In this document: positions 2 to 36,847 of the stretch, one piece after another
Layout: each line of letters opens with the position of its first letter
Position numbering within the stretch: the first letter of the stretch is position 1
DNA from: a virus
Virus record (IMG/VR): IMGVR_UViG_3300045922_000293
Location: 32,001 to 96,000 of that record
Length of the DNA: 64,000 nt
Strand: one strand, 5' to 3'
The notes under the pieces: generated by a model
Seen by the model: the letters and a program-made list of their open reading frames with translations, nothing else
The model's database searches: none
What the model was told of the DNA's origin: nothing
Translations under genes and position numbers: made by a program

Positions 2-1486
2 GATGAAAAGGCCAAAACCCCTTTAAAGGTGCTTGTCCCAACTTCATTGCGTAAAGAATTTTTGGTCTTTGATGCAAAAGGAAAGTCTAAGACTTTTGAG
101 ACTCTTGAGGAAGCCGAGGATTTTGTAAGATTTGAATCTTTTAAGATGGAGACTGACAAGAAAAAACAGCCCTTTAAGATCAATAAAAAAGAGCGCGAGG
201 AGAAGCGACTTGAATGGACTCCCGAAACGGATGAGACCCTTGTGAAGCTGAAGCATAAGATCAGCGCCACGACGCCGGAGATCCTTGCATGGGCAAAAGA
301 CCCTTCAAAGATCAACCCTGCCTCGATTGATGCTCATTTTGCTGAGTTAAGCGCCTCGGACTTGATTCAGGCTAAAGGTCAGCTCGCGCGTTTAAATCAG
401 TATTTGATGTTTGAGGAAGGCGCGGACAGTATTCCGCTTAGTAAGGATGAGGCCGCCCGTGTAGTGAATGTGGTGGAGGCCGCGATAGCCAAGGCTCAGA
501 AAGCTCAAGGTGATGCCCCCGTATTGAATGAAGAGACGATTGAGGATGCGATTGAAATCGCGAAGAATCACGGCGTGGCATCTCTGATCCCCAGTGTGAA
601 GAAGTTGTCTTCTGACGCGGTTTCTGATGTGCGTGACGCCGTGGATAGATACTATCTTGAGACAGGTGATGACACGGCCAAGGATCTGCGTGATGTGTTA
701 GAAATACGCCTTTGTCAAGAGTCTTCAGAATCTACGATCTCAGCAGATATTGCTTTGAAGACCTTATATAAAGAACGAGTGGTGAATCCCTCAGAATTTG
801 ATCTAGGCGATGATGAAGATCGCGGGGAATTTATGCAGAGCTTATCACAGCTTTCTGATAGAGACCTGATAGAAAAGTTTCAAAAGATCCCCATCTATGC
901 ACTGATCATGGGTGTTGATGATCAAACACAGCCTGAATCCCATTTTCTAAGACCCGATCAGAAAGATAGGCTCTTGTTGAAATTGGAGCAGGATATCAGA
1001 AGGCGAGCGTTTTTTAATGATTTGCAGTTAAGGGCGGGTAATCCAGATAAATTATCAGAATTGATTCACCGCACTCGCGAAAATAGTCTCAAAGATCGTG
1101 AAAAGAAGGTCTTTGAAGAAAGAGTGCCTAAAGGCGAGAGCTTTTTTGATTTTTTGATGAAGTTATTGAAGCAGCCTAGTATGAAATGGAAGAGAAGAGC
1201 CATGAGGAAATCTTCATCGTTGAAAATTGCGCATCTTTATATGCTGGGTGTACCTAAGAACACACGCCAGATAAGGCTTCAGGATGTGCTCGCCCTCTTG
1301 TCCTTAGCTTTAGCATGGTATGATAGGGATCAGATGTCCCTTCAGAGTGAGGCATCACGCCGTCGTATGGCGTTAGACTACGCGATTCATACCTACGGCG
1401 GAGGTGAGTATCAAAGGGCTGTGGATGACCCCTTTTATGTGACCCTATGGGATGCTTTATGTGCTTTTTTAGATGAAAACGCTTAA
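2..1486 (+). CDS. Hypothetical phage protein, probably 5'-truncated by the window edge
   Basis: The frame of ORF 29..1486 is open back to base 2. Helical, charged sequence with no recognisable family. The C-terminal segment carries KIAHLYM. Confidence 0.75.
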   Translation, partial: DEKAKTPLKVLVPTSLRKEFLVFDAKGKSKTFETLEEAEDFVRFESFKMETDKKKQPFKINKKEREEKRLEWTPETDETLVKLKHKISATTPEILAWAKDPSKINPASIDAHFAELSASDLIQAKGQLARLNQYLMFEEGADSIPLSKDEAARVVNVVEAAIAKAQKAQGDAPVLNEETIEDAIEIAKNHGVASLIPSVKKLSSDAVSDVRDAVDRYYLETGDDTAKDLRDVLEIRLCQESSESTISADIALKTLYKERVVNPSEFDLGDDEDRGEFMQSLSQLSDRDLIEKFQKIPIYALIMGVDDQTQPESHFLRPDQKDRLLLKLEQDIRRRAFFNDLQLRAGNPDKLSELIHRTRENSLKDREKKVFEERVPKGESFFDFLMKLLKQPSMKWKRRAMRKSSSLKIAHLYMLGVPKNTRQIRLQDVLALLSLALAWYDRDQMSLQSEASRRRMALDYAIHTYGGGEYQRAVDDPFYVTLWDALCAFLDENA

Positions 1487-23984: not shown

Positions 23985-25787
23985 ATGAATTATCAATATC
24001 TCACGACATCCATCAAGCGGAGGATGCTTGAAGACCTGAAGCGGCACTTCAGCTACATCCCTCAGCACAAAGATATTGTTGAGCACATCCGCTACAAGTA
24101 CGACTTCAAGGAGAGGCCCCAGAAAGGCATCTTCTTGATGAACGTATCTGCCACCCCCATGAAGCTGTCTACAGATAACTACATGGCGGGATTGCATTCT
24201 TATGTGATGCTCGGAAAACTTGATCTTGGTACATCACGGCCAAGCGGAATGTTCGTGGATTGGGTCAAGGAAGATACGGAATTAATTGAACGTAACAAAG
24301 GCATCCCGCCTGCTTTTGCAGGGCAGTACAATCTTGAAATTCAATCCCGCATCGATCCATCTACGAAAGAAACGGAATGGGATCTGTATGTGGACCCCAT
24401 TTACAAGGTGCTTCAGGAGCCTTTGCTCACATTCGTTACGGGCAATGAAACTTCTGCAAATCTTCAAAACATCCCTGTCTACCCGAATAGCCCGCGCCTG
24501 TATCTCAATGGGCGTACACAACTCCTAAGCGGACCTGTGTTCAGTCTTCAAGCCAATCAAAGTCTCATCATTCATGATCCCCTCTTTGGTTTACCTCAAG
24601 GTCAGATCCGTGTGAGGGCGTTGTCCCCACAGATGGCCCCGTACACTATTGTGGCGGGCGTGAATGATGTGTTGGCTTTTGAAGTGAACGGCACCCCCGT
24701 CACGGTGCTTCTTCCCCCAGGCGTGTATACAGCACAGCAGATGAAACAGGAGATTGACGCTGCCGCTCATGCGGAGAGTCTGTTTGCACCCGAGTATATC
24801 ACGAATGTGGTGGGGGATCAGCTTGAGATCACGGGAATCACGTCTGTATTTTTTGAGGATCATATCTTTTCCCCCGCCTCCCCCACTCTCGGCTTCCCCT
24901 CCGCTAGCTTTATTCCCCCTATTGCGCAGGGGGTGCTTTTCAGGCCCCGTGTATTGGACCATCAAAATGTCATGACCTTGATTCTGGACGGTATTGAGTA
25001 TGCCATCATCTTTGAGCCCGGCATGTATAAAGATGCTGTGGAGATTCGGGATAGGATTCAAGATCAATTGCCCGTTGGGGTAACCTTAGTGTTACAAGAT
25101 GGGGGGGAGTACACAGTGGATAACGTGACGGGTGCGGTGACGTTCCATGTGGCGTTTAGCCCCGGTGATCACGTGATTGCGGATTATTCTTATCACGGGC
25201 CCTCCCGCGGGCCTATAGCCGTAAAGAAGAATCAAGAGGTGCGCCATGCCGTGGAAGGCGCGATGATAGCCCTTGGCGAGTCCTTTGAAGATAAAGATAA
25301 GTGTTTCATCTTGATTTTACCCCATCGTGTTCATACCGCGGATTTGTATGGGGGTAAGACTGAGATAAGTTTGGATTTTGATATTATCGCCCGTGATCCG
25401 ATGGATCGTGAGAGCCTTGTTGACATTCTTACGATGTATTTTCATCATTATGAAAATGAGCGGTTTGCTGAGGAGGGCTTAGGTATTACAAGTGTGAGCG
25501 GGGGTGGTGAGAGTGAAGAGGTCTATGATGATGTGGGGGACGATTATTTCTACAAAAGTAGTGTGAGTGTGTCTCTCCAAAGTGATTGGGAGGTAGCAGT
25601 GCCGCGCCCCCTCACCATTGAAAAGATTTTGCCCGTGACGTATGAGCAGGAGGCTTTATTAGCTGCGCGGGAGCGTGACATTCTCCCTCATGATCAGGTT
25701 TTGCGCCCCGTAGTGTCCGTGACTCAAGAAGAGATAAAAGAGAAGGCACGGCGTGGTTTGACACCCTTTAAAGAGAGAATCCACTGA
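23985..25787 (+). CDS. Putative tail terminator/neck protein with inserted surface domains
   Basis: Conserved-looking N- and C-terminal halves interrupted by beta modules shared with the sheath; lies upstream of the sheath. Confidence 0.5.
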   Translation: MNYQYLTTSIKRRMLEDLKRHFSYIPQHKDIVEHIRYKYDFKERPQKGIFLMNVSATPMKLSTDNYMAGLHSYVMLGKLDLGTSRPSGMFVDWVKEDTELIERNKGIPPAFAGQYNLEIQSRIDPSTKETEWDLYVDPIYKVLQEPLLTFVTGNETSANLQNIPVYPNSPRLYLNGRTQLLSGPVFSLQANQSLIIHDPLFGLPQGQIRVRALSPQMAPYTIVAGVNDVLAFEVNGTPVTVLLPPGVYTAQQMKQEIDAAAHAESLFAPEYITNVVGDQLEITGITSVFFEDHIFSPASPTLGFPSASFIPPIAQGVLFRPRVLDHQNVMTLILDGIEYAIIFEPGMYKDAVEIRDRIQDQLPVGVTLVLQDGGEYTVDNVTGAVTFHVAFSPGDHVIADYSYHGPSRGPIAVKKNQEVRHAVEGAMIALGESFEDKDKCFILILPHRVHTADLYGGKTEISLDFDIIARDPMDRESLVDILTMYFHHYENERFAEEGLGITSVSGGGESEEVYDDVGDDYFYKSSVSVSLQSDWEVAVPRPLTIEKILPVTYEQEALLAARERDILPHDQVLRPVVSVTQEEIKEKARRGLTPFKERIH

Positions 25788-26293: not shown

Positions 26294-27238
26294 ATGTTTT
26301 ATCCTATGTATCAAAAGCCTGTGAGCGTGCAGAAGAGCTTATCCGTTATATCTGTAGAGTCTACCGCGTTTGATGTGCTGGCTAGTGAGGGTCGTATTGC
26401 CTCGGAAAGATTAACCTCGCAGATGCTTTATCCTAATATGCCTCTCATCGTGATCTGTGAGGAGAACGGGCAGAAGCATTCTTTACTGGCCATTGCGCTG
26501 AAAGAAGAAGATAAGGAAAAGCGTACAATTACGGTACATAAGGTGTCACATGGCAAAGACGGCGGGAGTGTTAACGGGATCAAACCCCGTAATAAAGAGC
26601 AGAGCTTGTTATTAGCTCTGCTCCAAATGATGCATGTGCGAGTGCTTGTCGTCACAGGTCCGGCGGGTACGGGTAAGAGCTTGTGTATTGCAGCGCATGC
26701 TTTTGAGGTGATCAGTAAGACCAAAGATATGAAGTTGGTCTTGACGAAGCCCTTAGAGATCGTGACGGGGACGCGTTTTTGGGGTACCATGCCCGGAAAT
26801 GCAGATGAGAAGTTTGAGCCTTTTCTTAAATCTTTTTCAGTTCTCTTTGAGTCCATCTCGCCAAGGGGTGCGAGTACCCGTGAATATGTGGATGGATTGT
26901 TAAAGAGCAAGCGCATCGAATTCTATCCCTTAGAAGTGATGCGCGGGGTGTCTCACCGAAATAGTTATGTGTGGTATGATGAAGCGCAAAACATGGATTG
27001 TCATGAAATGCTTACATTAGGATCACGCATTGATGATGTGGGACAGAGCCGTCTTGTTTTATCAGGTGATTTGTATCAACAGGATCGTCATATCGCCCGT
27101 CCTGAAACAGGCTTGCACCACCTTGTGACCTCAAAGCATTTCTTGGAGTCCCCTCACACGGCACACATGGATCTCAATAAGATTGAGCGGGGCGTCGTGT
27201 GTCAGCTATTCCATGATATCTTCAGTGGTCTCGCCTAG
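26294..27238 (+). CDS. phoH: PhoH-family ATPase
   Basis: IKPRNKEQ, GPAGTGKS, MPG..DEK, MRG.S, DEAQN, GDLYQQD. Confidence 0.9.
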   Translation: MFYPMYQKPVSVQKSLSVISVESTAFDVLASEGRIASERLTSQMLYPNMPLIVICEENGQKHSLLAIALKEEDKEKRTITVHKVSHGKDGGSVNGIKPRNKEQSLLLALLQMMHVRVLVVTGPAGTGKSLCIAAHAFEVISKTKDMKLVLTKPLEIVTGTRFWGTMPGNADEKFEPFLKSFSVLFESISPRGASTREYVDGLLKSKRIEFYPLEVMRGVSHRNSYVWYDEAQNMDCHEMLTLGSRIDDVGQSRLVLSGDLYQQDRHIARPETGLHHLVTSKHFLESPHTAHMDLNKIERGVVCQLFHDIFSGLA

Positions 27239-27398: not shown

Positions 27399-30300
27399 TT
27401 GACGCCCATGAGTATTTTCCCTACCTATGCTCCTCCCGGTGTATACACACAGACGCGCGCACAGCAAGATGCGAGTGGCCCTCCCAATGGCCTCCGTCTC
27501 CCCGTGTTTATCGGTACGGGCAAAGAGACGTTGCGTCGCGTCAACCTAGAGCTGATTAGGGGTTCTTCTGTACAAGCGGATCAGCGCATTAATCGTGAGT
27601 CTGTCGCGGAGCGCGCTATTATAGCACAGACGGGCGAGACCACTTTCGTGCTAGGTGCGTTTGATGGTGTCACGAATCGTATTCAGGTTTTGAATTTTCC
27701 GATTACGAATGGGAGCGGCCAGGGCCTTCCGAGCAATAATGTGGCGGATGTGGTTGTGACGGTGAACGGCATCCCCGTCCGTCCCGCCGGAATGCGCGGC
27801 GCGTTAGGTGTGATCACGCTTCAAATTCCCCCGTTGCCCGGTGATGATGTGCGCGTGACGTACTCGTTCAAGCGCACGGACACCCTCATCACAGATGATC
27901 TCAGTGCTCAGGTCACCACCCAACCCGCTCGATTGTTTGGTGCTTTGCCTGAACCTTATACGATTGTATCAGGCGTCAATGACACCCTGATTTTGATCGT
28001 TGATGGTGTGACACATACCCGCACCTTACCTGCTGTGACGGGTATCACGGCTTCGGATCTTGCGGTACAAATCAATGGCTTGCTTATCCCCGGTTTGACG
28101 GTGTTTGCGGATACTGATAATAGGGGTCAGGGCCGTCTTGTGTTCGAGGCAGCGCAGGGGATCCTTATCGGGGCGGGAACCGCAAACGGGGTGCTAGGAT
28201 TCATCACGGGACAGCGTACAAGGCGCAATCAGGTATTCTTCACGAATCAGGGGCCGATTGTGGATGGTCGTAACGGCGGCATCACGACGACGGACCCAAC
28301 AGATGTGAGCGTGCGCGTGGACAACGTGCCTGTCATTCCCCTTGCGGTGGATGGGACAAACTACTCAGTCACGTTGCCCTTTGCACCAGCGCCGGGGGCT
28401 CGGGTTGAAATCACCTATTTCTTTAATGCTTGGCAAGACACGTTTGACTACCTTCCTGATACGGGAGTCACGAATGTGCTTCAGGTGGGAAACATCCCCG
28501 ACAAGCGCGATTATCGTGAAGAGCTTGATTATGTGGTCCTAAATGATCGCATCCTATGGGGTGCCGCGACGAATATCATGTCGGGTGTGAACACGGGGGG
28601 CACGGATCCTTTCGGATCGGAGCAGATCTCAACGCTTCTGATCGATAACCGTATGTATCTAGAGCGCGCGACAAGATTTGTGGATCGTTCCGTAAGCCCC
28701 GCCCGCGAGTCGAATACGACGTTTATTCTTGAAAATATTCCCACGCTAGGTAATGGGCGGGATACGCCACTGAATCTTGACGTCTTTCATGCGGTCGCCA
28801 ACGATCGTATTCAGGTGCCCTCAAATCGAACGGATTTGATTCAAGTCTTTACAGGCCCCAACTTATCGAGTGCTCTGCTTGAAGGCCCGAGAAGCGTTGT
28901 GCGTGTTACGGCGACAAATCGTAGGGTGACATTAGCGGAGCCAATCCCACCTGATCATTTCATTTGGGTGTCTTATTACTATAATCGTCTGCGTGATGAT
29001 CGTTATACGCTAGAGGTGCAGACGCAGACTTCGGGTCTTATTCCGGGCCAGTACACGGTCACGTCACGACTCCAGGGTCAACGCTTGTATGATGTGCGTT
29101 TTGGTACGACAACTTCTAGCGTGCCGATTGCATGGCCCTCCGGTGTTGAGACGGATCCTGACGGGTTCATTGTAGGAGGTCAGGGGCGTAATGAAACCGT
29201 GACGGTCACATTTACGCAGATTCCTGCCACCCCCGCAATTCTCACGAATACGTCAACGGGGCCTTATGACCTGTATGCGACTTTATCAGATCGGCTTTAT
29301 ATCAATGTATCAGGGACGCCGACTACAACGAATTTGAATCAGCCCGCTCCGGGCACCCTTGTGAGCGGCGCGCATCCTTCTGCAACATTGTTCACCTTTA
29401 CCCCTTCAAATAACGTCTTCTCTTTTGAGCTGGATGGGGTGGTGTTCAATGCGAATATTCCCGCAGGTGTGTACACGGGTCCGCAGATTGTTGAGCGTAT
29501 GAATCGCGCCGCGTTGCCCTTATCTACCGTGACGGCGGGCATTGCACAGCCTTATGATATTATCTCACAGGTGCAAGGCACGAATGCCGCGCCGTTTGAT
29601 ATCTTCTCGCAGATCACGGGGTCACAAGTTGGGCCGTTCAATATCTTCGCAGCGGTGCAAGGTACGAACGCGGGGCCTTTTGATATCTTTGCAGAGATTC
29701 TTGGGACGAATGTGGGGCCTTTTGATACGTTCGCGACGCTGACCACGCCTAGCTCCGAGCCTTTTGATACCACACTCGGCAATCATGTTTTTGATCTTAC
29801 GGTCAACGGTGTCCCTGTAAGCGTCAACCTCACGGTGGGCGCGGCAGAGACGGCGGCTACCCTGATCGCGGATATTACCGCCGAGCTGACGCTTCAAGGC
29901 TTAAATGTCGGGCCTTTGACCTTCCCCACTACAAATGATGTGGAGGTCTTGAATCAGGCGGGTGCAATTGAAATACGCGCAACAGATTCAGTGGTCATCG
30001 GCGCAGGTACGGCGAACACACCTTTTGGTTTTGTAGGCGGCGAGACGAGTAACGCTGTGGTGAATTTTGACGTTGAAATTAACGGCACAGGTGTGAATGC
30101 GATTCTACAGGGAGCGGCGGCTGTGCCAACATCAGCGGTGATTACCGCGTTGAGCGCAGCGGCGACCGCAGCGGCATTCAATGTGGGCCCACTCAATGTA
30201 TTGACAAATGATGTGGTGTTTGAAAACATTGCGGGGGCGGTGCGTATCCGATCAACCAACACCGTCGAGATCGGATTGCAGACGATCACTAACACCCTTC

Positions 30301-33300
30301 TCGGCTTTGCAGACGCAGATCTTGACCGAGCGGATAATGCACTTGAGTTCAATATTGATGTAAACGCCGCCCCCATCGCTGTCCCTGTAACATTGCGAGG
30401 TGGTATCGCGATCCCCACAAGCCGTATCGCGGAAGATGTCAATGATGCGATTGCGTTAGCGGGCCTGACTCAGGGACCATTGACGACACTCACGAATCAA
30501 GCCCATGCTCTTGTGGGCCCGGGGCAAACGCTACGCATTGAAGTGAAAGAGTCGATCACTGTGCTTGCGGAGACTGCAAACGGTGCGCTTGGTCTAGTGC
30601 CCGCTACGATCACCGCCCCGAATGTGTTTGACTTCACTGTCAATACCATTCCTGTCACAGCCTCTTTACTTGGGAATGCGGCGGGCCGTCATGTTCCCGC
30701 TGCAAATATTGCGACAGCACTGAACGCTGCCGCAGCTTTGGCGGGTGTGACCGTGGGCGTGCTTACGGTCCCCGGTAATGATTTTGATGCGGCGGTGTTA
30801 GCGGCTTCTATTCTACAGCTTCAGGCCACGCAGAATATCACGATCGGCGCGGGGACCGCTAACCCCGTATTAGGCTTTACCAATCTCGCTACAGCATCCT
30901 CCCCCAATACGTTTGACCTTGAAGTGAACGGCACCCCCGTCACGGTCTTGTTTAACGGGGGGAGGGGTATTGCTGCGTCACAGATTCAAACCGAGATCGA
31001 GGCTGCTTTGATCAGCTCTTTGATTGTGGTAGGGGACGTGAGTGTGAGTGGTAATGAGGCGGATGTGAGTGTTCAGAACGGGCGTGTCCGTATCAGGGCG
31101 AGGGACTCTGTTGAGGTGCTTGCAGGGAATGCCAACCCTGTGTTAGGATTTGCAGACAACACGGCGGTCACCACCTCAGATCAGCTCACCTTTATCATGA
31201 ATGGTGTCCCCGTCAACGTCACATTAAATCGTCTTGCGAATCAAAGTGCCCTCTCTATTGCTGCCCAGATCAATGCTCAAGCGGTCGTGGCAGGTCTCAA
31301 TGTGGGCCCAATCACGACACCGGGATTTGAGGCGCAGGCGGTGAGCGTCAACGGGCGTCTACAGGTGCAAGCGTATCAGGATCTTGAGGTAGTTGCGGCG
31401 TCAGCGAACGGGATTTTTGGTCTTGTGCCTAGTGTGCTGCCCTCCAATGTGGAATTTGCAAAATATCGATCGGGCCTCAATACGGATCGATTCTTGATCC
31501 GATCCCGTGTACTCCCCACCAATCCCTCACAGGTAAGCCGTATCCGTATCCTGAGCGGAACCGCAAATGCAACGCTTCTGTTTACCCCGTTTGCGGATGC
31601 CACGGGAACAGAGCGCGCGGTCAACAAGCCCGCTACGGTGATTGGTACGAATGTGACTCCTTTGCAAATTCAGAATCTTGCACTTCAAAATCCTGTCTTG
31701 CGTGTACGCTTGCAGGGGTCTGAATTTCAAGTCACGGGCTTTACGCTTGTCACGAACTTAGCGGATGTGGCCAACGTCATCAACACCGTGATCGCAGGGG
31801 CGGGCAGTGTGACAGTGGAGGGTCAGCGTTTGCGTGTGACCAGTGCGGTGGATACCCCCGACAGCCTTGTGGAGATCGTGCCTGCTCCCGCCAATAGTTT
31901 CTTAGGATTTACGGGAACGGAGCGCGGGGTGTTGCGACGAGTCGCCGCATCAGAAGTGGCAGCGGTCCTCAATTGGCAGTCTTTAGACTGGCTCGCGCCC
32001 TCGGCTACAGACTTCAATGGTCAAGCCTTTGCGGATGTGTTGGGTGTTCAGGGTCAAGGGTCATTCTTGCGTATGACCACGTTTGAGGAAGGCGCGCTCC
32101 GCTCTCTTCTGATCGCGACGGGTGTACAGGATGCCACCAATGATACGGTGATTGGTCTACAGCCTGGGGATAATGCTAGCGGTACAGATCCTATTGACGG
32201 GTTTCATGTCACGTCAAACATCCCGAATGGGTCAAGCGGTCATGGTACGGTGGGGCGAACCTATACGGATGCCGTCACGGGGCTCAGGTTCACGGTCCTC
32301 GCTCCTACAGGTGGGGCTTATGTAGTAGGTGAGAGTTTTACTCTTGTTGTGTCGGACACATTCTTGACGGGAGCAAGACCAACACAGGCGATGCCTGGCC
32401 TTGAGACGATTGTGACCACTACGGCTGGCGTAGGCGTTCTTGATACGGGTATTCTCGACTCTTATGATGGGGGTGGCTTTGAGCCCCGTGTCAATGATTT
32501 TTATTACATGTCTTATGACTATGTAAAGCCTGATTTCGACATACGCTTGTTCACTTCATTAGCGGATGTGATTGCGGAGTATGGGGATCTAGACGTAGAT
32601 AATGCTTTGACTGTGGCGGCATTCTTGGCTTTCCAGAATGGTGCTAGCGTGATTGCATGCAAGCAGGTTGTGCGTCAGCCCGGACTTGATCAGGCATCCT
32701 CTACAGCTTATATTCAAGCGATTCAGGATCTGGAGAAACCTTTAGCGGGGGGCATTAACGCGGATGTGATTGTCCCTCTCACGTTTGATCTTAATGTGTT
32801 CAATGCCGCCGTGAGATCGGCGGAGGTACAATCCTCTATCCGCTATCGTCAAGAGCGTTCCTGCATCTTCGGTGTAGCCTCGGGTGTACGCCCGCAAGAG
32901 GCGCAGGCATTGGCGCGGGGGCTTCGCTCAGAGAGGGCGGTGATCGTGTACCCCGATTCATTGATTATCTCCTTGCCGGATGCATTAGGCATATCACGTC
33001 AGTTTGTTGTGGATGGAGTGTTTGCTGCCGCTGCTTTCGCGGGTCTTAGTGTGTCACCTCAATTTGATATTGCGGAGCCAATGACCCGCAAGAGTATTGC
33101 AGGTTTTGATCGCTTGAATCGATCCCTTGATGAGATCGAGAAGAATAGTCTCGCTATTGACGGTGTGACGGTTCTTGAAGATAATGGAGGATCGGTGCGT
33201 GTGCGACATAGCCGTACGACGGATCCTTCAAGTGTATTTACGTCAGAACCAAGCGTTGTAGCGATCAAAGACTTTGTTCAGATCCGAACCCGACGGGTAT

Positions 33301-33533
33301 TGGATCGCTATATTGGTCAGAAGTTCTTGATCAGCCGTGCAGCGGATGTGGAAACCACCCTATCGGGCTTGCTCAATTCTCTTGTGGACTCTGAGATCAT
33401 TAGGGGATTTGGTGGGGTGAGCGCCGTCCCCAGTCCGATTGATCCTACGGCGCTTGAAGTGGTAGCATTTTACAGCCCAGTCTTTCCTCTGAATTTCATC
33501 CGCCTCACATTTACCCTCCGATCCTCAACCTAA
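27399..33533 (+). CDS. Contractile tail sheath protein, very large (2044 aa)
   Basis: N-terminal YAPPGVYTQ; C-terminal sheath domain ending YSPVFPLNFIRLTF; repeated inserted domains. ATG 27408 is the likely start. Confidence 0.9.
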   Translation: MTPMSIFPTYAPPGVYTQTRAQQDASGPPNGLRLPVFIGTGKETLRRVNLELIRGSSVQADQRINRESVAERAIIAQTGETTFVLGAFDGVTNRIQVLNFPITNGSGQGLPSNNVADVVVTVNGIPVRPAGMRGALGVITLQIPPLPGDDVRVTYSFKRTDTLITDDLSAQVTTQPARLFGALPEPYTIVSGVNDTLILIVDGVTHTRTLPAVTGITASDLAVQINGLLIPGLTVFADTDNRGQGRLVFEAAQGILIGAGTANGVLGFITGQRTRRNQVFFTNQGPIVDGRNGGITTTDPTDVSVRVDNVPVIPLAVDGTNYSVTLPFAPAPGARVEITYFFNAWQDTFDYLPDTGVTNVLQVGNIPDKRDYREELDYVVLNDRILWGAATNIMSGVNTGGTDPFGSEQISTLLIDNRMYLERATRFVDRSVSPARESNTTFILENIPTLGNGRDTPLNLDVFHAVANDRIQVPSNRTDLIQVFTGPNLSSALLEGPRSVVRVTATNRRVTLAEPIPPDHFIWVSYYYNRLRDDRYTLEVQTQTSGLIPGQYTVTSRLQGQRLYDVRFGTTTSSVPIAWPSGVETDPDGFIVGGQGRNETVTVTFTQIPATPAILTNTSTGPYDLYATLSDRLYINVSGTPTTTNLNQPAPGTLVSGAHPSATLFTFTPSNNVFSFELDGVVFNANIPAGVYTGPQIVERMNRAALPLSTVTAGIAQPYDIISQVQGTNAAPFDIFSQITGSQVGPFNIFAAVQGTNAGPFDIFAEILGTNVGPFDTFATLTTPSSEPFDTTLGNHVFDLTVNGVPVSVNLTVGAAETAATLIADITAELTLQGLNVGPLTFPTTNDVEVLNQAGAIEIRATDSVVIGAGTANTPFGFVGGETSNAVVNFDVEINGTGVNAILQGAAAVPTSAVITALSAAATAAAFNVGPLNVLTNDVVFENIAGAVRIRSTNTVEIGLQTITNTLLGFADADLDRADNALEFNIDVNAAPIAVPVTLRGGIAIPTSRIAEDVNDAIALAGLTQGPLTTLTNQAHALVGPGQTLRIEVKESITVLAETANGALGLVPATITAPNVFDFTVNTIPVTASLLGNAAGRHVPAANIATALNAAAALAGVTVGVLTVPGNDFDAAVLAASILQLQATQNITIGAGTANPVLGFTNLATASSPNTFDLEVNGTPVTVLFNGGRGIAASQIQTEIEAALISSLIVVGDVSVSGNEADVSVQNGRVRIRARDSVEVLAGNANPVLGFADNTAVTTSDQLTFIMNGVPVNVTLNRLANQSALSIAAQINAQAVVAGLNVGPITTPGFEAQAVSVNGRLQVQAYQDLEVVAASANGIFGLVPSVLPSNVEFAKYRSGLNTDRFLIRSRVLPTNPSQVSRIRILSGTANATLLFTPFADATGTERAVNKPATVIGTNVTPLQIQNLALQNPVLRVRLQGSEFQVTGFTLVTNLADVANVINTVIAGAGSVTVEGQRLRVTSAVDTPDSLVEIVPAPANSFLGFTGTERGVLRRVAASEVAAVLNWQSLDWLAPSATDFNGQAFADVLGVQGQGSFLRMTTFEEGALRSLLIATGVQDATNDTVIGLQPGDNASGTDPIDGFHVTSNIPNGSSGHGTVGRTYTDAVTGLRFTVLAPTGGAYVVGESFTLVVSDTFLTGARPTQAMPGLETIVTTTAGVGVLDTGILDSYDGGGFEPRVNDFYYMSYDYVKPDFDIRLFTSLADVIAEYGDLDVDNALTVAAFLAFQNGASVIACKQVVRQPGLDQASSTAYIQAIQDLEKPLAGGINADVIVPLTFDLNVFNAAVRSAEVQSSIRYRQERSCIFGVASGVRPQEAQALARGLRSERAVIVYPDSLIISLPDALGISRQFVVDGVFAAAAFAGLSVSPQFDIAEPMTRKSIAGFDRLNRSLDEIEKNSLAIDGVTVLEDNGGSVRVRHSRTTDPSSVFTSEPSVVAIKDFVQIRTRRVLDRYIGQKFLISRAADVETTLSGLLNSLVDSEIIRGFGGVSAVPSPIDPTALEVVAFYSPVFPLNFIRLTFTLRSST
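29526..31425 (+). repeat. Six 14-aa repeats followed by six ~90-aa repeats within the sheath
   Basis: xxxGTNxxPFDI-type units at 29526-29771, then (F/L)xxxVNGxPV...AxxANxxLG(F/L) units at 29781-31425. Confidence 0.85.
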
Positions 33534-33897: not shown

Positions 33898-35544
33898 ATG
33901 AAGATGTCTAAAAAAACGATTGTGTATGGTGATGAGGCTAGGGCGAAGTTAGCAGCAGGTGTAGATACGATCGCCCAAGCAGTCGGCGTGACATTAGGGC
34001 CGCGCGGGCGGCATGTCATGATCGATCGTTTGGGAAATCCGCAAATCACGAAGGACGGAGTGACTGTAGCTCGTGAGGTAGAGCTCGACACACCTATTAG
34101 CCGCCTTGGGGCCCAAATGGCGCGGAACGCTTCCACAGCAACTGTAGCACAGAGCGGGGATGGCACGACGACAACGATGATCTTGACACAAGCTATGGTC
34201 AAGAATGCGAGGAAGCTCTTGACGGGCAATAGTAGCTTATCCCCTGTTCTGATGCAGAAGGGCATGATGCGCGCGTCAACCCTCGGGGCGGATTTTTTGA
34301 GAAGTATCTCAAGAAAGGTGGAGAGCCCCGAGGAGATCGCCAAGATTGCCTCATTGTCGAGTAATGGGGATCACCATCTAGGGGCATTGATCGCGCAAGC
34401 CTGTGAGACGGCGGGGGAGGAAGGCGTGATCATGGTGGAAGAAGGTAAGGGGATTCAGACGGTTTTGGAGTTTGAGGAAGGTTATTGTCTTGATCGCGGC
34501 TATTTTGATGTGATTTTTTGTGGGGATCCGTCAAAAACAGAGATTGAACTCGAAGATGCGTTTATCTTGATTTGTAATAAGAAGCTGACAGATGTCCATG
34601 AGAGCAAGCACGTGTTGCAATGGGTGGTCAGCATGGATCGCCCGCTTATCGTGATCGCTCATGACTTTGGGGGTGACTTTTTAAAGGCGATGTATCAAAA
34701 CAGCATCGCCAAAAATATCAATGTGGTGCCTGTTGTCGCCCCCTTATTTGGGGATAAGCGTGACATTCTTCTTGAGGACCTCGCGGTATTGACAGGCGGG
34801 ATGGTGATTGATGATATGGCGGGGATCACATTTAAAAGTGTGGAGCCGCAGGATATGATCGGGATTGCGCATCATGTACGCGTCACGAAGACGCGGACGA
34901 TCTTGTTTGACTGTACTTCGGATGCAGTCCGCTTAGAACAGCGCATTCGCCATGCTCAACATTTTGCAAGAACAAGCCCCAGCGAGTATGATAAAGAATT
35001 TCATCAACGCCGCGGATCTTATCTCGGGGGAGGCATGGCGATCATCCGCGTAGGCGCTCAGACTGAAGCGGAGATGAAGGCATATAAGGCCCGTGTGGAA
35101 GACGCCCTGGCTGCAACGAAGGCTGTGATCAAGGATGGCTTTGTGTTAGGCGGTGGTATGGCCTATTTAAAGACCTCAGAGTATCTCAAGGGTGTGTATC
35201 CCCAGATGAGCTTTGCCACGGAGGATGAGGAGGTTGGCTATCATCTTGTATGTGACGCTCTTGAAGCACCTCTCGTGAAACTTTTGGAGAATGCGCAGCT
35301 CAAGCAGCCTCATCGGATCTTGTATGCCGCGCAAGATTTAGGGTTTGAGGATGGTGCGGTCTATGACGTAGCACGGGGGGAATGGGTGGATGGGTATAGG
35401 GGAGGCATCATTGATCCAACGCTCGTGGTCCTGTCATCCCTGCATAATTCTGTGAGCACGGCATCCACGCTGATGATGGTGGAGGCCGTGATAGGCATCT
35501 CCGATATGGGTGAGTTTTCACCTTTTGGCATTGACCTTGCTTGA
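33898..35544 (+). CDS. groEL: GroEL-like group I chaperonin
   Basis: VTLGPRGR, ITKDGVTVA, GDGTTT, RVEDALAAT, GGG, GIIDP. No GGM tail. Confidence 0.95.
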   Translation: MKMSKKTIVYGDEARAKLAAGVDTIAQAVGVTLGPRGRHVMIDRLGNPQITKDGVTVAREVELDTPISRLGAQMARNASTATVAQSGDGTTTTMILTQAMVKNARKLLTGNSSLSPVLMQKGMMRASTLGADFLRSISRKVESPEEIAKIASLSSNGDHHLGALIAQACETAGEEGVIMVEEGKGIQTVLEFEEGYCLDRGYFDVIFCGDPSKTEIELEDAFILICNKKLTDVHESKHVLQWVVSMDRPLIVIAHDFGGDFLKAMYQNSIAKNINVVPVVAPLFGDKRDILLEDLAVLTGGMVIDDMAGITFKSVEPQDMIGIAHHVRVTKTRTILFDCTSDAVRLEQRIRHAQHFARTSPSEYDKEFHQRRGSYLGGGMAIIRVGAQTEAEMKAYKARVEDALAATKAVIKDGFVLGGGMAYLKTSEYLKGVYPQMSFATEDEEVGYHLVCDALEAPLVKLLENAQLKQPHRILYAAQDLGFEDGAVYDVARGEWVDGYRGGIIDPTLVVLSSLHNSVSTASTLMMVEAVIGISDMGEFSPFGIDLA

Positions 35545-35707: not shown

Positions 35708-36847
35708 ATGAGCAAGAGATTGATTATCTCCCATGCTGGGTGTAATGATGGTACATGGGCCGCGCATGTATGTCTAGCAAAATATCCTGATGCGAAGGTG
35801 TATTTTGCATCTTACCATCAAGACCCCCCTGATGTGACGGGTCTTGATGTGATCATGGTGGATTTTTCATATAAGCGAGCCGTTCTTCTTGATATGAAGG
35901 AGAAGGCAAACAGCTTGATTGTGTTGGACCATCATCTATCCGCTCAGGAGGATTTAGAGGGTCTTGATTTTTGCATCTTTGATCAAGAACATAGCGGCGC
36001 GGTCATGGCATGGTTGTATTTGTTCCCAGATCGCCCCGTGCCCGATCTTTTAAAGCGTGTGGAGGATTATGATCTTTGGCGGTTTCATTTTGAGGATACC
36101 AAGCGTGTAGTGCAGGGTATGTATTTGTACGGCAAAGATGATGTACAGCGTGAATTAGATATTGATGCTTTGCTTCAAGGTGTTGGTGACGATCGCCTGA
36201 CCTTTTATGCAGATGTGGGCTCAGTGCTTGTCAAGTCTTCCAATCATGCGGTGTCGCGATTAAAGAGCAAGGCCCATGATCTGAAGATAGGGGGGCATTG
36301 GGTCAAGGCTGTCAACACAACAGAATACGTCTCAGAATTAGGGGCCGAATTAGCTGCAAAGTCGAAATTCGCTGTGATTTGGAGTCTATCAAAGGATTCA
36401 CAGCACATTCAATTATCTTTCAGATCGGATCGTGATAATCCGGACCATATCAAAGTGAAAGATATTGCGACATCATTAGGCGGGGGTGGTCATGAATATG
36501 CTTCAGGTGCTAAGATGACATTGTCAGAATTCTTGCTGTGTTTGAATCCTTATAGGAATGCACGTTCAGAGGCTTATAGGGAGATCACGCCGGATGCCGT
36601 GCTTGATTTCCTCAAGCATCACGGATGGATTGAGGTAGCTTCAACGGATTATAAGAGGGGGGAGGTGTATCAGCCTTTGTATAGCGTGTGGGATCTGCCC
36701 AAGACTGAATTTCAAGTCTTGGTGCCGCATGATCCTGAAAGGTCTGAATATACGCAGCGTATGGCTGAAGTGGTGACACATCTTGCACAGGCACACCGTC
36801 GAGAGCGTCATGATATGATGTTCATGTTGATTCGTGGGTATAAGTGA
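35708..36847 (+). CDS. DHH-family phosphoesterase with DHHA1 and an extra C-terminal domain
   Basis: HxxCxDG, VDFS, LDHH, SGA, DxDLW, SFRS, GGGGHEYASG. Confidence 0.9.
   Translation: MSKRLIISHAGCNDGTWAAHVCLAKYPDAKVYFASYHQDPPDVTGLDVIMVDFSYKRAVLLDMKEKANSLIVLDHHLSAQEDLEGLDFCIFDQEHSGAVMAWLYLFPDRPVPDLLKRVEDYDLWRFHFEDTKRVVQGMYLYGKDDVQRELDIDALLQGVGDDRLTFYADVGSVLVKSSNHAVSRLKSKAHDLKIGGHWVKAVNTTEYVSELGAELAAKSKFAVIWSLSKDSQHIQLSFRSDRDNPDHIKVKDIATSLGGGGHEYASGAKMTLSEFLLCLNPYRNARSEAYREITPDAVLDFLKHHGWIEVASTDYKRGEVYQPLYSVWDLPKTEFQVLVPHDPERSEYTQRMAEVVTHLAQAHRRERHDMMFMLIRGYK

What the first reader, a model, noticed from the sequence alone, without database searches (positions are those of the whole stretch)
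29526..31425. Matryoshka-like nested domain expansion in the 2044-aa tail sheath
Seen: an intact module near the sheath N-terminus reads LFGALPEPYTI-VSGVNDTLILIVDG...GAGTANGVLGF. In the middle of the protein, six copies of only the first strand occur back to back (…QPYDI, …APFDI, …GPFNI, …GPFDI, …GPFDT, …EPFDT). They are followed by exactly six copies of the rest (NHVFDLTVNG, NAVVNFDVEING, DNALEFNIDVN, PNVFDFTVN, PNTFDLEVNG, SDQLTFIMNG), each ending in an ANxx(L/F)G-like motif (copy 2 reads TNTLLGF). Inference: the order is N1..N6-C6..C1, meaning each domain was inserted into the same loop of the previous one. This would build an out-and-back stalk of six domains projecting from every sheath subunit, giving a bristled tail. 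The block itself sits inside further split copies of the module.
Basis: partly seen in the sequence, partly recalled or inferred. Interest (0 to 1): 0.75.

Follow-up and report, generated by a model that had tools for sequence, protein, structure and literature searches.

The report
Six-deep nested domains in phage sheath
A giant tail-sheath protein of a huge phage carries six copies of one small flagellar-cap-like domain, each apparently inserted inside the previous one like Russian dolls, which may be the deepest self-nesting of a protein domain seen so far.

Summary
The 2044-aa tail sheath (window 27399-33533, +) has six 14-aa units at an exact 14-residue period (aa 710-793). Six ~92-aa "headless" bodies follow (aa 794-1342), each ending ANxxLG(F/L). 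An intact module (aa 180-268) aligns end to end with unit 6 + body 1.

The nested reading is supported:
- **Counts move together.** Homologous sheaths have 0+0, 1+1, 6+6 or 7+7 units and bodies, never unequal numbers.
- **Fold prediction.** In the best AlphaFold2 model, single FliD/flagellin-like domains span unit 1..body 6, unit 5..body 2 and unit 6..body 1. Two further host modules enclose the array.
- **Peptide test.** Units 1-3 became ordered on bodies 4-6 in an ESMFold2 complex: ipSAE 0.52, best control 0.00, a weak pass.

Levels 2-4 were not resolved by AlphaFold2 (pLDDT below 30). No coordinates were available. The "bristled tail" idea is untested.

Nesting itself is known, for example in the Geovibrio flagellin (D5 inside D4) and the six-level cyanobacterial RNA polymerase Si3. 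This is therefore a new, extreme variant of a known kind: about eight levels of one fold. Two other first-stage notes of this scan describe the same stretch.

The parts
27399..33533 (+). Tail sheath gene, 2044 aa from the TTG. The true start is probably the ATG at 27408 (M4).
   Evidence: The ORF is open. phrog_2839 'tail sheath' matches aa 1690-2040 at E 2.3e-36. tblastn hits annotated sheaths of Tunturiibacter phage Tunturi_5, Bacillus phage G and Mycobacterium phages. The homolog consensus begins MSxFxxYAPPGVYT.
27936..28202 (+). Intact reference module M0 (aa 180-268): head unit plus body in one piece.
   Evidence: HMM hit over profile positions 1-83. Aligns end to end with unit 6 + body 1 at E 3e-5.
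29220..29363 (+). Outer host module O, N-terminal part (aa ~608-655, includes GPYDL).
   Evidence: VIA-align ranges 18-20..1007-1011 against FliD D2/D3 domains: Z 8.4-9.4, rmsd 2.6-2.8, 105-111 residues aligned.
29376..29525 (+). Host module H, N-terminal half (aa ~660-709: strands and helix). The array is inserted after its helix.
   Evidence: Half-length HMM hits (profile 1-36/40) here and in homologs. The module is contiguous in P0012/P0013. VIA ranges 61-71..814-816.
29526..29777 (+). Six 14-aa head units U1-U6 (aa 710-793), 42 nt each: 29526, 29568, 29610, 29652, 29694, 29736.
   Evidence: Exact 14-residue period. DSSP strands fall in U1, U4 (by this framing its last residue plus the first three of U5), U5 and U6 of the AlphaFold2 model.
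29778..30032 (+). Body 1 (aa 794-878). Contiguous with U6, forming the innermost, intact module.
   Evidence: HMM iE 4.6e-33. VIA ranges 186-190..288-297.
30033..30308 (+). Body 2 (aa 879-970). Paired with U5 in the model.
   Evidence: HMM iE 7.7e-29. VIA ranges 166-173..381-386 in 7 distinct rows over the two searches, Z 3.4-4.8.
30309..30596 (+). Body 3 (aa 971-1066). Expected partner is U4.
   Evidence: HMM iE 5.3e-31. The pairing is inferred; the U4 strand has pLDDT about 57.
30597..30878 (+). Body 4 (aa 1067-1160). Expected partner is U3.
   Evidence: HMM iE 1.3e-30. Weak support from the complex of U1-U3 with bodies 4-6.
30879..31151 (+). Body 5 (aa 1161-1251). Expected partner is U2.
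   Evidence: HMM iE 2.9e-35. Weak support from the complex.
31152..31424 (+). Body 6 (aa 1252-1342). Paired with U1 in the model; outermost module of the array.
   Evidence: HMM iE 2.8e-33. VIA ranges 115-119..753-758 in at least 8 rows, for example phiTE sheath 9cb9_A with Z 7.5, rmsd 2.8, 82 aligned.
31425..31610 (+). Host module H, C-terminal half (aa 1343-1404).
   Evidence: Aligns with the C-half of the contiguous module of P0012/P0013 and of P0007. VIA ranges end at model 814-816.
31620..31910 (+). Intact module M_last (aa 1408-1504), lying beside H inside O.
   Evidence: VIA 819..924: phage XM1 baseplate 7kh1_A6 Z 12.1, rmsd 2.0, 104 aligned. Pa193/E217 sheath Z 8.0-9.7. Vibrio flagellins Z 9.3-9.9.
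31911..32198 (+). Outer host module O, C-terminal part (aa ~1505-1600).
   Evidence: VIA ranges end at model 1007-1011.
32466..33518 (+). Conserved C-terminal sheath core (aa 1690-2040).
   Evidence: phrog_2839 at E 2.3e-36. About 30% identity to annotated sheaths of phage G and Mycobacterium phages.

Best explanation
The gene encodes the contractile-tail sheath of a huge phage. Its relatives sit on contigs of 300-520 kb.

**Architecture.** Between the conserved N- and C-terminal sheath core, the surface-exposed insertion is built from one ~105-aa module with a FliD/flagellin outer-domain-like fold. The module has two short head strands, then a body of strands, one helix and more strands, ending ANxxLGF. 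Six copies are nested recursively. The chain lays down the head strands of modules 1 to 6 in turn (aa 710-793). It then completes the bodies in reverse order, from innermost to outermost (aa 794-1342). Head unit k thus completes body 7-k.

**Enclosing levels.** The six-module array sits after the helix of a seventh module (H). H, together with one intact module, sits inside an eighth module (O). That gives about eight nested levels of one fold.

**Shown here:** the repeat anatomy, the lockstep copy numbers in homologs, and a predicted model whose domains are discontinuous exactly as nesting predicts at levels O, H, 1, 5 and 6.

**Inferred:**
- Pairing at levels 2-4.
- The result is a chain of beads joined by a double linker, extending from each sheath subunit.
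- Its role is surface decoration, either weak adhesion to host envelope or matrix, or lateral bracing of the sheath, as proposed for other extra sheath domains.
- The array most likely grew by separate duplications of head units and bodies, kept equal by selection, rather than by literal serial insertion.
For: 1. **Sheath identity.** phrog_2839 at E 2.3e-36, plus tblastn hits to annotated sheaths.
2. **Repeat anatomy**.
3. **Intact module = unit 6 + body 1**. Later bodies lack the head.
4. **Lockstep counts** of 0/0, 1/1, 6/6 and 7/7 in homologs. Length steps match about 105 aa per module (2044 against 1520 and about 1420 aa).
5. **AlphaFold2 of aa 590-1600.** Mean pLDDT 80.7, with most of the bodies at about 75-95 per 10-residue block (body 3 and parts of body 4 lower). 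VIA-align ranges to single-domain PDB hits:
   - 115-119..753-758 (U1 + body 6; best Z 7.5, rmsd 2.8, 82 aligned)
   - 166-173..381-386 (U5 + body 2; Z 3.4-4.8)
   - 186-190..288-297 (U6 + body 1)
   - 61-71..814-816 (module H)
   - 18-20..1007-1011 (module O; Z 8.4-9.4)

   No range fits a parallel register.
6. **ESMFold2 complex of U1-U3 (aa 710-755) with bodies 4-6 (aa 1067-1342).** Verdict: weak support.
   - Score 0.52, best of 3 controls 0.00.
   - The mark was reached by 58 of 80 solved complexes and 2 of 110 mismatched pairs. At 0.60 or under it was reached by only 7 of those 80 and by both mismatches that passed.
   - My own alignment was used, so these counts hold only roughly.
   - Runs agree in at least 98% of contacts. 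Partner pLDDT was at least 77, against 27 when chain 1 was replaced.
7. **Geometry.** U6 is joined to body 1 by the same 6-residue loop as in intact modules. All inter-unit and inter-body linkers are about 8-10 aa, which fits only the mirrored order.
8. **Precedent.** In the Geovibrio flagellin, D5 is a duplicate of D4 inserted in its loop, and D4 is FliD-D2-like (PMC11532411).
Against: - Units U2 and U3 and most of U1 and U4 (model residues 127-174) have pLDDT below 30 in the AlphaFold2 model. Bodies 4 and 5 are matched there as contiguous domains (ranges 484..576 and 577..670). AlphaFold2 can therefore build the bodies without heads.
- Only one of five AlphaFold2 models was good (80.7 against 56-61).
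- No coordinates or contact maps were available. VIA ranges give only the first and last aligned residue, and several supporting rows have low Z (3.4-5).
- The complex pass is formally weak.
- Similarity among head units does not mirror similarity among bodies, so there is no co-phylogeny support.
- Unrelated proteins carry long arrays of similar 14-aa FDI-type repeats with no bodies. Such repeats can therefore exist on their own.
- Only 5 array-bearing sequences are known, and no intermediate counts (2-5) were found.
Confidence: 0.77

Rival explanations
1. The 14-aa units fold on their own, as a beta-ribbon or solenoid-like spacer, or act as a flexible linker. The six bodies are then self-sufficient tandem domains, and the equal counts are coincidental or reflect co-duplication.
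For: - AlphaFold2 leaves U2 and U3 and most of U1 and U4 (model residues 127-174) at pLDDT below 30 while still building the bodies.
- Bodies 4 and 5 are matched as contiguous domains.
- Unrelated proteins P0095-P0110 have 20-35 copies of similar 14-aa repeats without bodies.
Against: - Counts of 0/0, 1/1, 6/6 and 7/7 are never unequal.
- The unit is homologous to the head of the intact module, which the bodies lack.
- U1, U5 and U6 are placed in domains with bodies 6, 2 and 1.
- The U1-U3 peptide is disordered (pLDDT 27) with an unrelated chain but reaches 78-80 with bodies 4-6 (weak support).
Confidence: 0.1
2. Inter-subunit donor-strand exchange. Some head units complement bodies of neighbouring sheath subunits, knitting an outer mesh over the sheath, analogous to the core sheath handshake.
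For: - Sheath cores are known to exchange strands between subunits (established knowledge).
- Bodies 3-5 lack a confidently placed head in the monomer model.
- Equal counts would also be required by this model.
Against: - Short 8-10-aa linkers on both sides favour intramolecular pairing.
- Levels 1, 5 and 6 pair within the chain in the model.
- A fixed mesh would have to survive the large subunit rearrangement on contraction.
- This was not tested directly.
Confidence: 0.07
3. Intramolecular pairing in another register, for example unit k with body k, or promiscuous or shifting pairing.
For: Head units are similar to one another (up to 11/14 identical). Their specificity for particular bodies is probably low.
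Against: - U6 is tied to body 1 by a 6-residue loop, as in intact modules.
- No VIA range matches a parallel register such as 118..289.
- A parallel register would need the body chain to curl into a ring.
Confidence: 0.04

Closest known systems
Geovibrio thiophilus flagellin outer domains D4/D5 (PDB 9au6; PMC11532411)
   Same: A FliD-D2-like domain is duplicated and the copy is inserted into a loop of the original, on the surface of a helical polymer. 9au6_A appears among the structural matches of the model here.
   Different: It has two levels, against six or seven here (about eight counting the hosts). It is a flagellar filament, not a phage sheath. No sequence-level relationship was shown.
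Cyanobacterial RNA polymerase beta' Si3 (nested sandwich-barrel hybrid motif domains)
   Same: Recursive nesting of homologous small domains. It was reported as the deepest case, six levels, in a survey of 48,551 insertion events (PMC13114784).
   Different: The fold is different (SBHM) and so is the function (trigger-loop insertion). The nesting is not at one and the same loop, and it does not give the simple pattern of n heads followed by n bodies.
Extra domains of phage tail sheaths (T4 gp18; Pa193/E217, phiTE, Milano and A-1(L) sheaths)
   Same: A conserved N+C core with surface domains inserted into one another. The module here superposes on a domain of the Pa193/E217 sheath (Z 8.0-9.7, rmsd about 2.5, about 103 aligned) and of the phiTE sheath (Z 7.5). 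Extra sheath domains are thought to be dispensable for contraction (PMC9230969).
   Different: Known sheaths have 1 to about 5 extra domains of mixed kinds and 400-900 aa. This one has at least 9 copies of one module and 2044 aa. No PDB sheath is detectable by sequence.
Flagellar cap FliD D2/D3 and flagellin out-and-back topology
   Same: The module fold is shared: FliD of E. coli, Salmonella, Serratia and Bdellovibrio give Z 7.7-9.4 and rmsd 2.6-3.0 over 105-114 residues. D3 inside D2 is itself a nested pair, and the chain runs out and back (PMC6248924).
   Different: There is no significant Pfam match to flagellar families. Similarity is at fold level only, and the context is unrelated to flagella.

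Membership tests
Contractile phage tail sheath | Conserved C-terminal sheath core detectable by sequence profile | tested here: met
   phrog_2839 'tail sheath' at E 2.3e-36 over aa 1690-2040, profile positions 217-564 of 581. tblastn gives 29-39% identity to annotated sheaths. Homologs P0040 and P0093 carry PF17482.
Contractile phage tail sheath | Pfam or PDB-level sequence match of the query itself to a solved or curated sheath | tested here: not met
   Pfam gave only sub-threshold DUF hits. phmmer and a profile search against PDB sequences gave no hit. The family is too diverged for these libraries, so identity rests on PHROG and annotated relatives.
Contractile phage tail sheath | Conserved N-terminal core and a neighbouring tail tube gene | not tested
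   The N-terminus is conserved among 92 homologs. The core was not folded and no tube gene was sought. The immediate neighbours are PhoH-like and GroEL genes.
Nested (discontinuous) domain insertion | The host domain is formed by two sequence segments that flank the insert | tested here: met
   Single-domain structural matches span 18-20..1007-1011, 61-71..814-816, 115-119..753-758 and 166-173..381-386 with only about 70-110 aligned residues. Levels 2-4 are unresolved.
Nested (discontinuous) domain insertion | Homologs without the insert have a contiguous host domain | tested here: met
   P0012/P0013 have host module H in one piece. P0007 has H plus one inserted intact module.
Nested (discontinuous) domain insertion | Equal numbers of N-terminal pieces and C-terminal pieces across relatives | tested here: met
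   Counts are 0/0, 1/1, 6/6 and 7/7. Only 5 array-bearing sequences exist in the databases searched.
FliD / flagellin outer-domain fold | Structural superposition on FliD D2/D3 or flagellin D2/D3 | tested here: met
   FliD gives Z 7.7-9.4, rmsd 2.6-3.0, 105-114 aligned. H. pylori FliD 6iwy is the top Foldseek hit at E 1e-4. Vibrio flagellins give Z 9.3-9.9. The Z values are middling, so this shows a shared fold and not proven homology.
FliD / flagellin outer-domain fold | Sequence-profile match to flagellar families (Flagellin_IN, FliD, FlgK D2-like) | tested here: not met
   The best hit is PF21158 FlgK D2-like at E 0.016 (15.6 bits against a cut-off of 24.2) on one module. The others gave nothing. 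The Atlas lead to a cluster with 22% Flagellin_IN scored 0.90 and is only a lead.

The most novel reading that the evidence does not exclude
This is the deepest natural self-nesting of a protein domain yet seen, about eight levels of one fold (nine in P0006). The copy number is tuned in nature between 0, 1, 6 and 7. The resulting rods stand out from every sheath subunit as a brush of roughly 15-20 nm, used for adhesion. Alternatively, the heads are partly exchanged between neighbouring subunits to form an outer chain-mail that must unzip or slide on contraction. The phage GroEL gene directly downstream might be needed to fold a protein whose outer domains cannot close until about 640 residues have been made.
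Probability: 0.15. Interest if true: 0.85.

Novelty: new variant of a known kind. Interest (0 to 1): 0.66.

Why it matters
- **A sequence signature for nesting.** Nesting depth can be read directly from sequence as n short head units followed by n headless bodies. This pattern could be searched for systematically.
- **Depth.** If the topology holds, it exceeds the six-level record reported for RNA polymerase Si3, and it uses a single loop of a single fold.
- **A natural series for folding studies.** Variants with 0, 1, 6 and 7 copies allow study of how discontinuous domains fold. The outermost domain cannot close until the whole array is synthesised.
- **Sheath biology.** It would show how a contractile sheath tolerates a large appendage on every subunit.
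- **Phage biology.** It points to an unexplored surface feature of huge-phage tails.

Tried and rejected
- **Second AlphaFold2 job.** Units 4-6 plus bodies 1-3 (aa 756-1066) with a 5-row alignment gave mean pLDDT 40.2, which is uninformative.
- **Coordinates.** None of the models were exposed in the script box, so no contact map could be computed. Domain composition had to be read from VIA-align ranges.
- **Co-phylogeny test.** I asked whether similar head units correspond to mirrored similar bodies. There was no signal in the query, P0003, P0005 or P0006. The extra module of P0006 could not be located.
- **DNA tandem repeats.** None were found.
- **More array-bearing homologs.** A word-based search restricted to aa 700-1345 returned only P0002-P0004. 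The exhaustive representative search returned only P0002, P0006 and a fragment, P0094, plus unrelated 14-aa-repeat proteins. No intermediate counts (2-5) were found.
- **Pfam on single modules.** Only sub-threshold hits.
- **PDB sequence and profile searches of the core.** No hits.
- **Pfam on the unrelated 14-aa-repeat proteins.** Nothing relevant.
- **Literature search.** No paper was found on nested insertion in sheaths that describes this pattern.

Full report
**What is there**

The window carries one long ORF, 27399-33533 on the + strand, of 2044 aa from a TTG. Its last 350 residues match the PHROG tail-sheath family phrog_2839 (E 2.3e-36). By tblastn the same region is 29-39% identical to annotated sheaths of Tunturiibacter phage Tunturi_5, Bacillus phage G and many Mycobacterium myophages. 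Ninety-two homologs of 1168-2489 aa exist in metagenomes, many on contigs of 300-520 kb, so this is the sheath of a huge phage. The window's own assembly is a single 113-kb contig. The homolog consensus begins MSxFxxYAPPGVYT, which makes the ATG at 27408 the likelier start.

**The observation**

The motif P[FY][DNT][ITL] occurs at aa 718, 732, 746, 760, 774 and 788, an exact 14-residue period. In 5000 shuffles the longest such run was 2. Six ~92-aa repeats follow, ending ANxxLG(F/L) at aa 878, 970, 1066, 1160, 1251 and 1342.

An intact module near the N-terminus (aa 180-268) aligns over its full length with unit 6 + body 1, head strand included (E 3e-5). Body 4 aligns with body 1 only from the second strand on (E 4e-10). 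The six later copies really are headless, and the six short units really are spare heads. The finding's coordinates correspond exactly to aa 710-1342. At DNA level there is no tandem repeat, so the copies are old.

**Lockstep in relatives**

I built an HMM of the body, scanned all homologs, and read the region upstream of the first body.
- P0012-P0029 (about 1412-1505 aa) have no unit and no body at this site. A host module that is split in the query is contiguous in them.
- P0007-P0011 (about 1520 aa) have one unit directly followed by one body, an intact module inserted after the helix of that host.
- P0003, P0004 and P0005 have six and six.
- P0006 (2138 aa) has seven and seven.

Length differences fit about 105 aa per module. 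However, only five array-bearing sequences exist in the databases I could search, and none has 2-5 copies.

**Structure prediction**

AlphaFold2 on aa 590-1600 with a 27-row alignment gave one good model: mean pLDDT 80.7, against 56-61 for the other four. Most of the bodies scored about 75-95 per 10-residue block; body 3 and parts of body 4 were lower, at about 46-68. DSSP shows short strands in units 1, 4, 5 and 6, but model residues 127-174 (units 2 and 3 and most of units 1 and 4) have pLDDT below 30. This also shows that the 14-aa unit contains two short strands, better framed as xxxx-GTNxG-PFDIF.

I therefore used the ranges reported by the structural aligner for matches to single PDB domains. 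With only about 70-114 aligned residues, the matches span:
- model 18-20..1007-1011, an outer module O (FliD D2/D3; Z 8.4-9.4, rmsd 2.6-2.8);
- 61-71..814-816, host module H;
- 115-119..753-758, unit 1 to the end of body 6 (at least 8 rows; best is phiTE sheath with Z 7.5, rmsd 2.8, 82 aligned);
- 166-173..381-386, unit 5 to the end of body 2 (Z 3.4-4.8);
- 186-190..288-297, unit 6 + body 1.

These are exactly the discontinuous domains that nesting predicts at five of eight levels. No range fits a parallel register. Bodies 4 and 5 were matched as contiguous domains, as expected when their heads are unplaced. The caveats are that a range gives only the first and last aligned residue, and that several rows have low Z.

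**Complex test of the unresolved part**

I folded units 1-3 (aa 710-755) as a separate chain against bodies 4-6 (aa 1067-1342), using ESMFold2 with controls. The verdict was weak support.
- Score 0.52, best of 3 controls 0.00.
- The mark was reached by 58 of 80 solved complexes and 2 of 110 mismatched pairs. At 0.60 or under it was reached by only 7 of those 80 and by both mismatches that passed.
- My own alignment was used, so the counts hold only roughly.
- The runs agree in at least 98% of contacts, and the partner's pLDDT is at least 77.
- With an unrelated chain in place of the bodies, the peptide's pLDDT fell to 27.

This fits strand complementation, but it does not fix the register.

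**Geometry and evolution**

Unit 6 is joined to body 1 by a 6-residue loop, as in intact modules. All other linkers, on both the unit side and the body side, are about 8-10 aa. Only the mirrored order lets every head reach a body.

Similarities among head units (for example U2 and U4 at 11/14 identical; in P0006, U3 and U5 at 10/14) are not mirrored among bodies. I therefore see no evidence for literal serial insertion of whole modules. A single tandem duplication cannot turn one head plus one body into two heads followed by two bodies. The likelier route is separate duplications of a head unit (a harmless 14-aa loop extension) and of a body, with selection restoring equality. This is inference.

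**What it resembles**

The module has the fold of FliD and flagellin outer domains, and of an extra domain in solved phage sheaths (Pa193/E217 Z 8.0-9.7; XM1 baseplate protein Z 12.1). It matches no flagellar Pfam family.

Nesting is a known principle:
- sheath extra domains are inserted into the core and into each other (PMC9230969);
- flagellins run out and back (PMC6248924);
- in the Geovibrio flagellin, D5 is a duplicate of the FliD-like D4 inserted in its loop (PMC11532411);
- a survey of 48,551 insertion events found six-level nesting in cyanobacterial RNA polymerase as its extreme (PMC13114784).

The present case is the same principle taken further: six (seven in P0006) copies of one fold in one loop, inside two more copies, in a sheath.

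**Function**

Nothing here tests function. By analogy with other non-essential sheath and flagellin outer domains, I take it to be a surface decoration. It would be a chain of about six 3-nm beads on a double linker per subunit, serving weak adhesion or lateral bracing. Whether it stands out as a bristle or lies along the sheath is unknown; pTM of 0.50 says nothing about inter-domain geometry.

**Rivals**
- The units fold alone, or act as linkers (about 0.10). AlphaFold2's failure on units 2-4 keeps this alive. So do unrelated proteins with 20-35 similar 14-aa repeats and no bodies.
- Inter-subunit strand donation (about 0.07).
- Another register (about 0.04).

**Verdict**

The nested interpretation is supported, at about 0.77. 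The bristle idea remains open. This is a new and extreme variant of a known architectural kind.

Noticed in passing
window 33898-35544 (+): A full-length phage GroEL gene (phrog_5725, E 6.5e-118) lies directly downstream of the sheath gene. A link to folding of the deeply nested sheath is speculation only.
   Followed up: no
window 23985-25787 (+), aa ~217-320: The upstream 600-aa protein carries an intact copy of the same module (APYTIVAGVND ... ASPTLGF; HMM iE 8e-5). It shares an exact 28-nt stretch (24679-24706) with sheath body 5 (30919-30946), in the same codon phase and encoding EVNGTPVTV. This suggests recent gene conversion or module exchange between virion genes.
   Followed up: partly
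proteins P0095-P0110, e.g. P0096 aa 400-900, P0097 aa 220-540: Unrelated metagenomic proteins of 570-1750 aa contain 20-35 tandem copies of a 14-aa repeat of the type xTxKFDIxxEVxKx. No matching bodies follow, and there are no relevant Pfam hits. This is an uncharacterised repeat class that scores against the head-unit array.
   Followed up: partly
window 27399-27410: The ORF's TTG start is probably not used. Homologs begin at the Met equivalent to the ATG at 27408. The database version of this protein (P0002, 2009 aa) starts 35 residues further in.
   Followed up: partly
homologs P0030-P0092: Many longer relatives (1550-2489 aa) show half-length hits of the module (profile 1-40) separated by hundreds of residues from C-terminal halves (profile 55-83). 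This suggests other nested arrangements that use the post-helix loop rather than the head loop. Three (P0039, P0043, P0057; about 2440-2490 aa) use other, unidentified insert domains.
   Followed up: no
window 26294-27238 (+) and 35708-36847 (+): A PhoH-like gene (phrog_170, E 2.3e-39) and a DHH phosphoesterase gene (phrog_4771, E 1.5e-60) flank the sheath-GroEL pair. The sheath is therefore not in a compact tail-gene block here.
   Followed up: no
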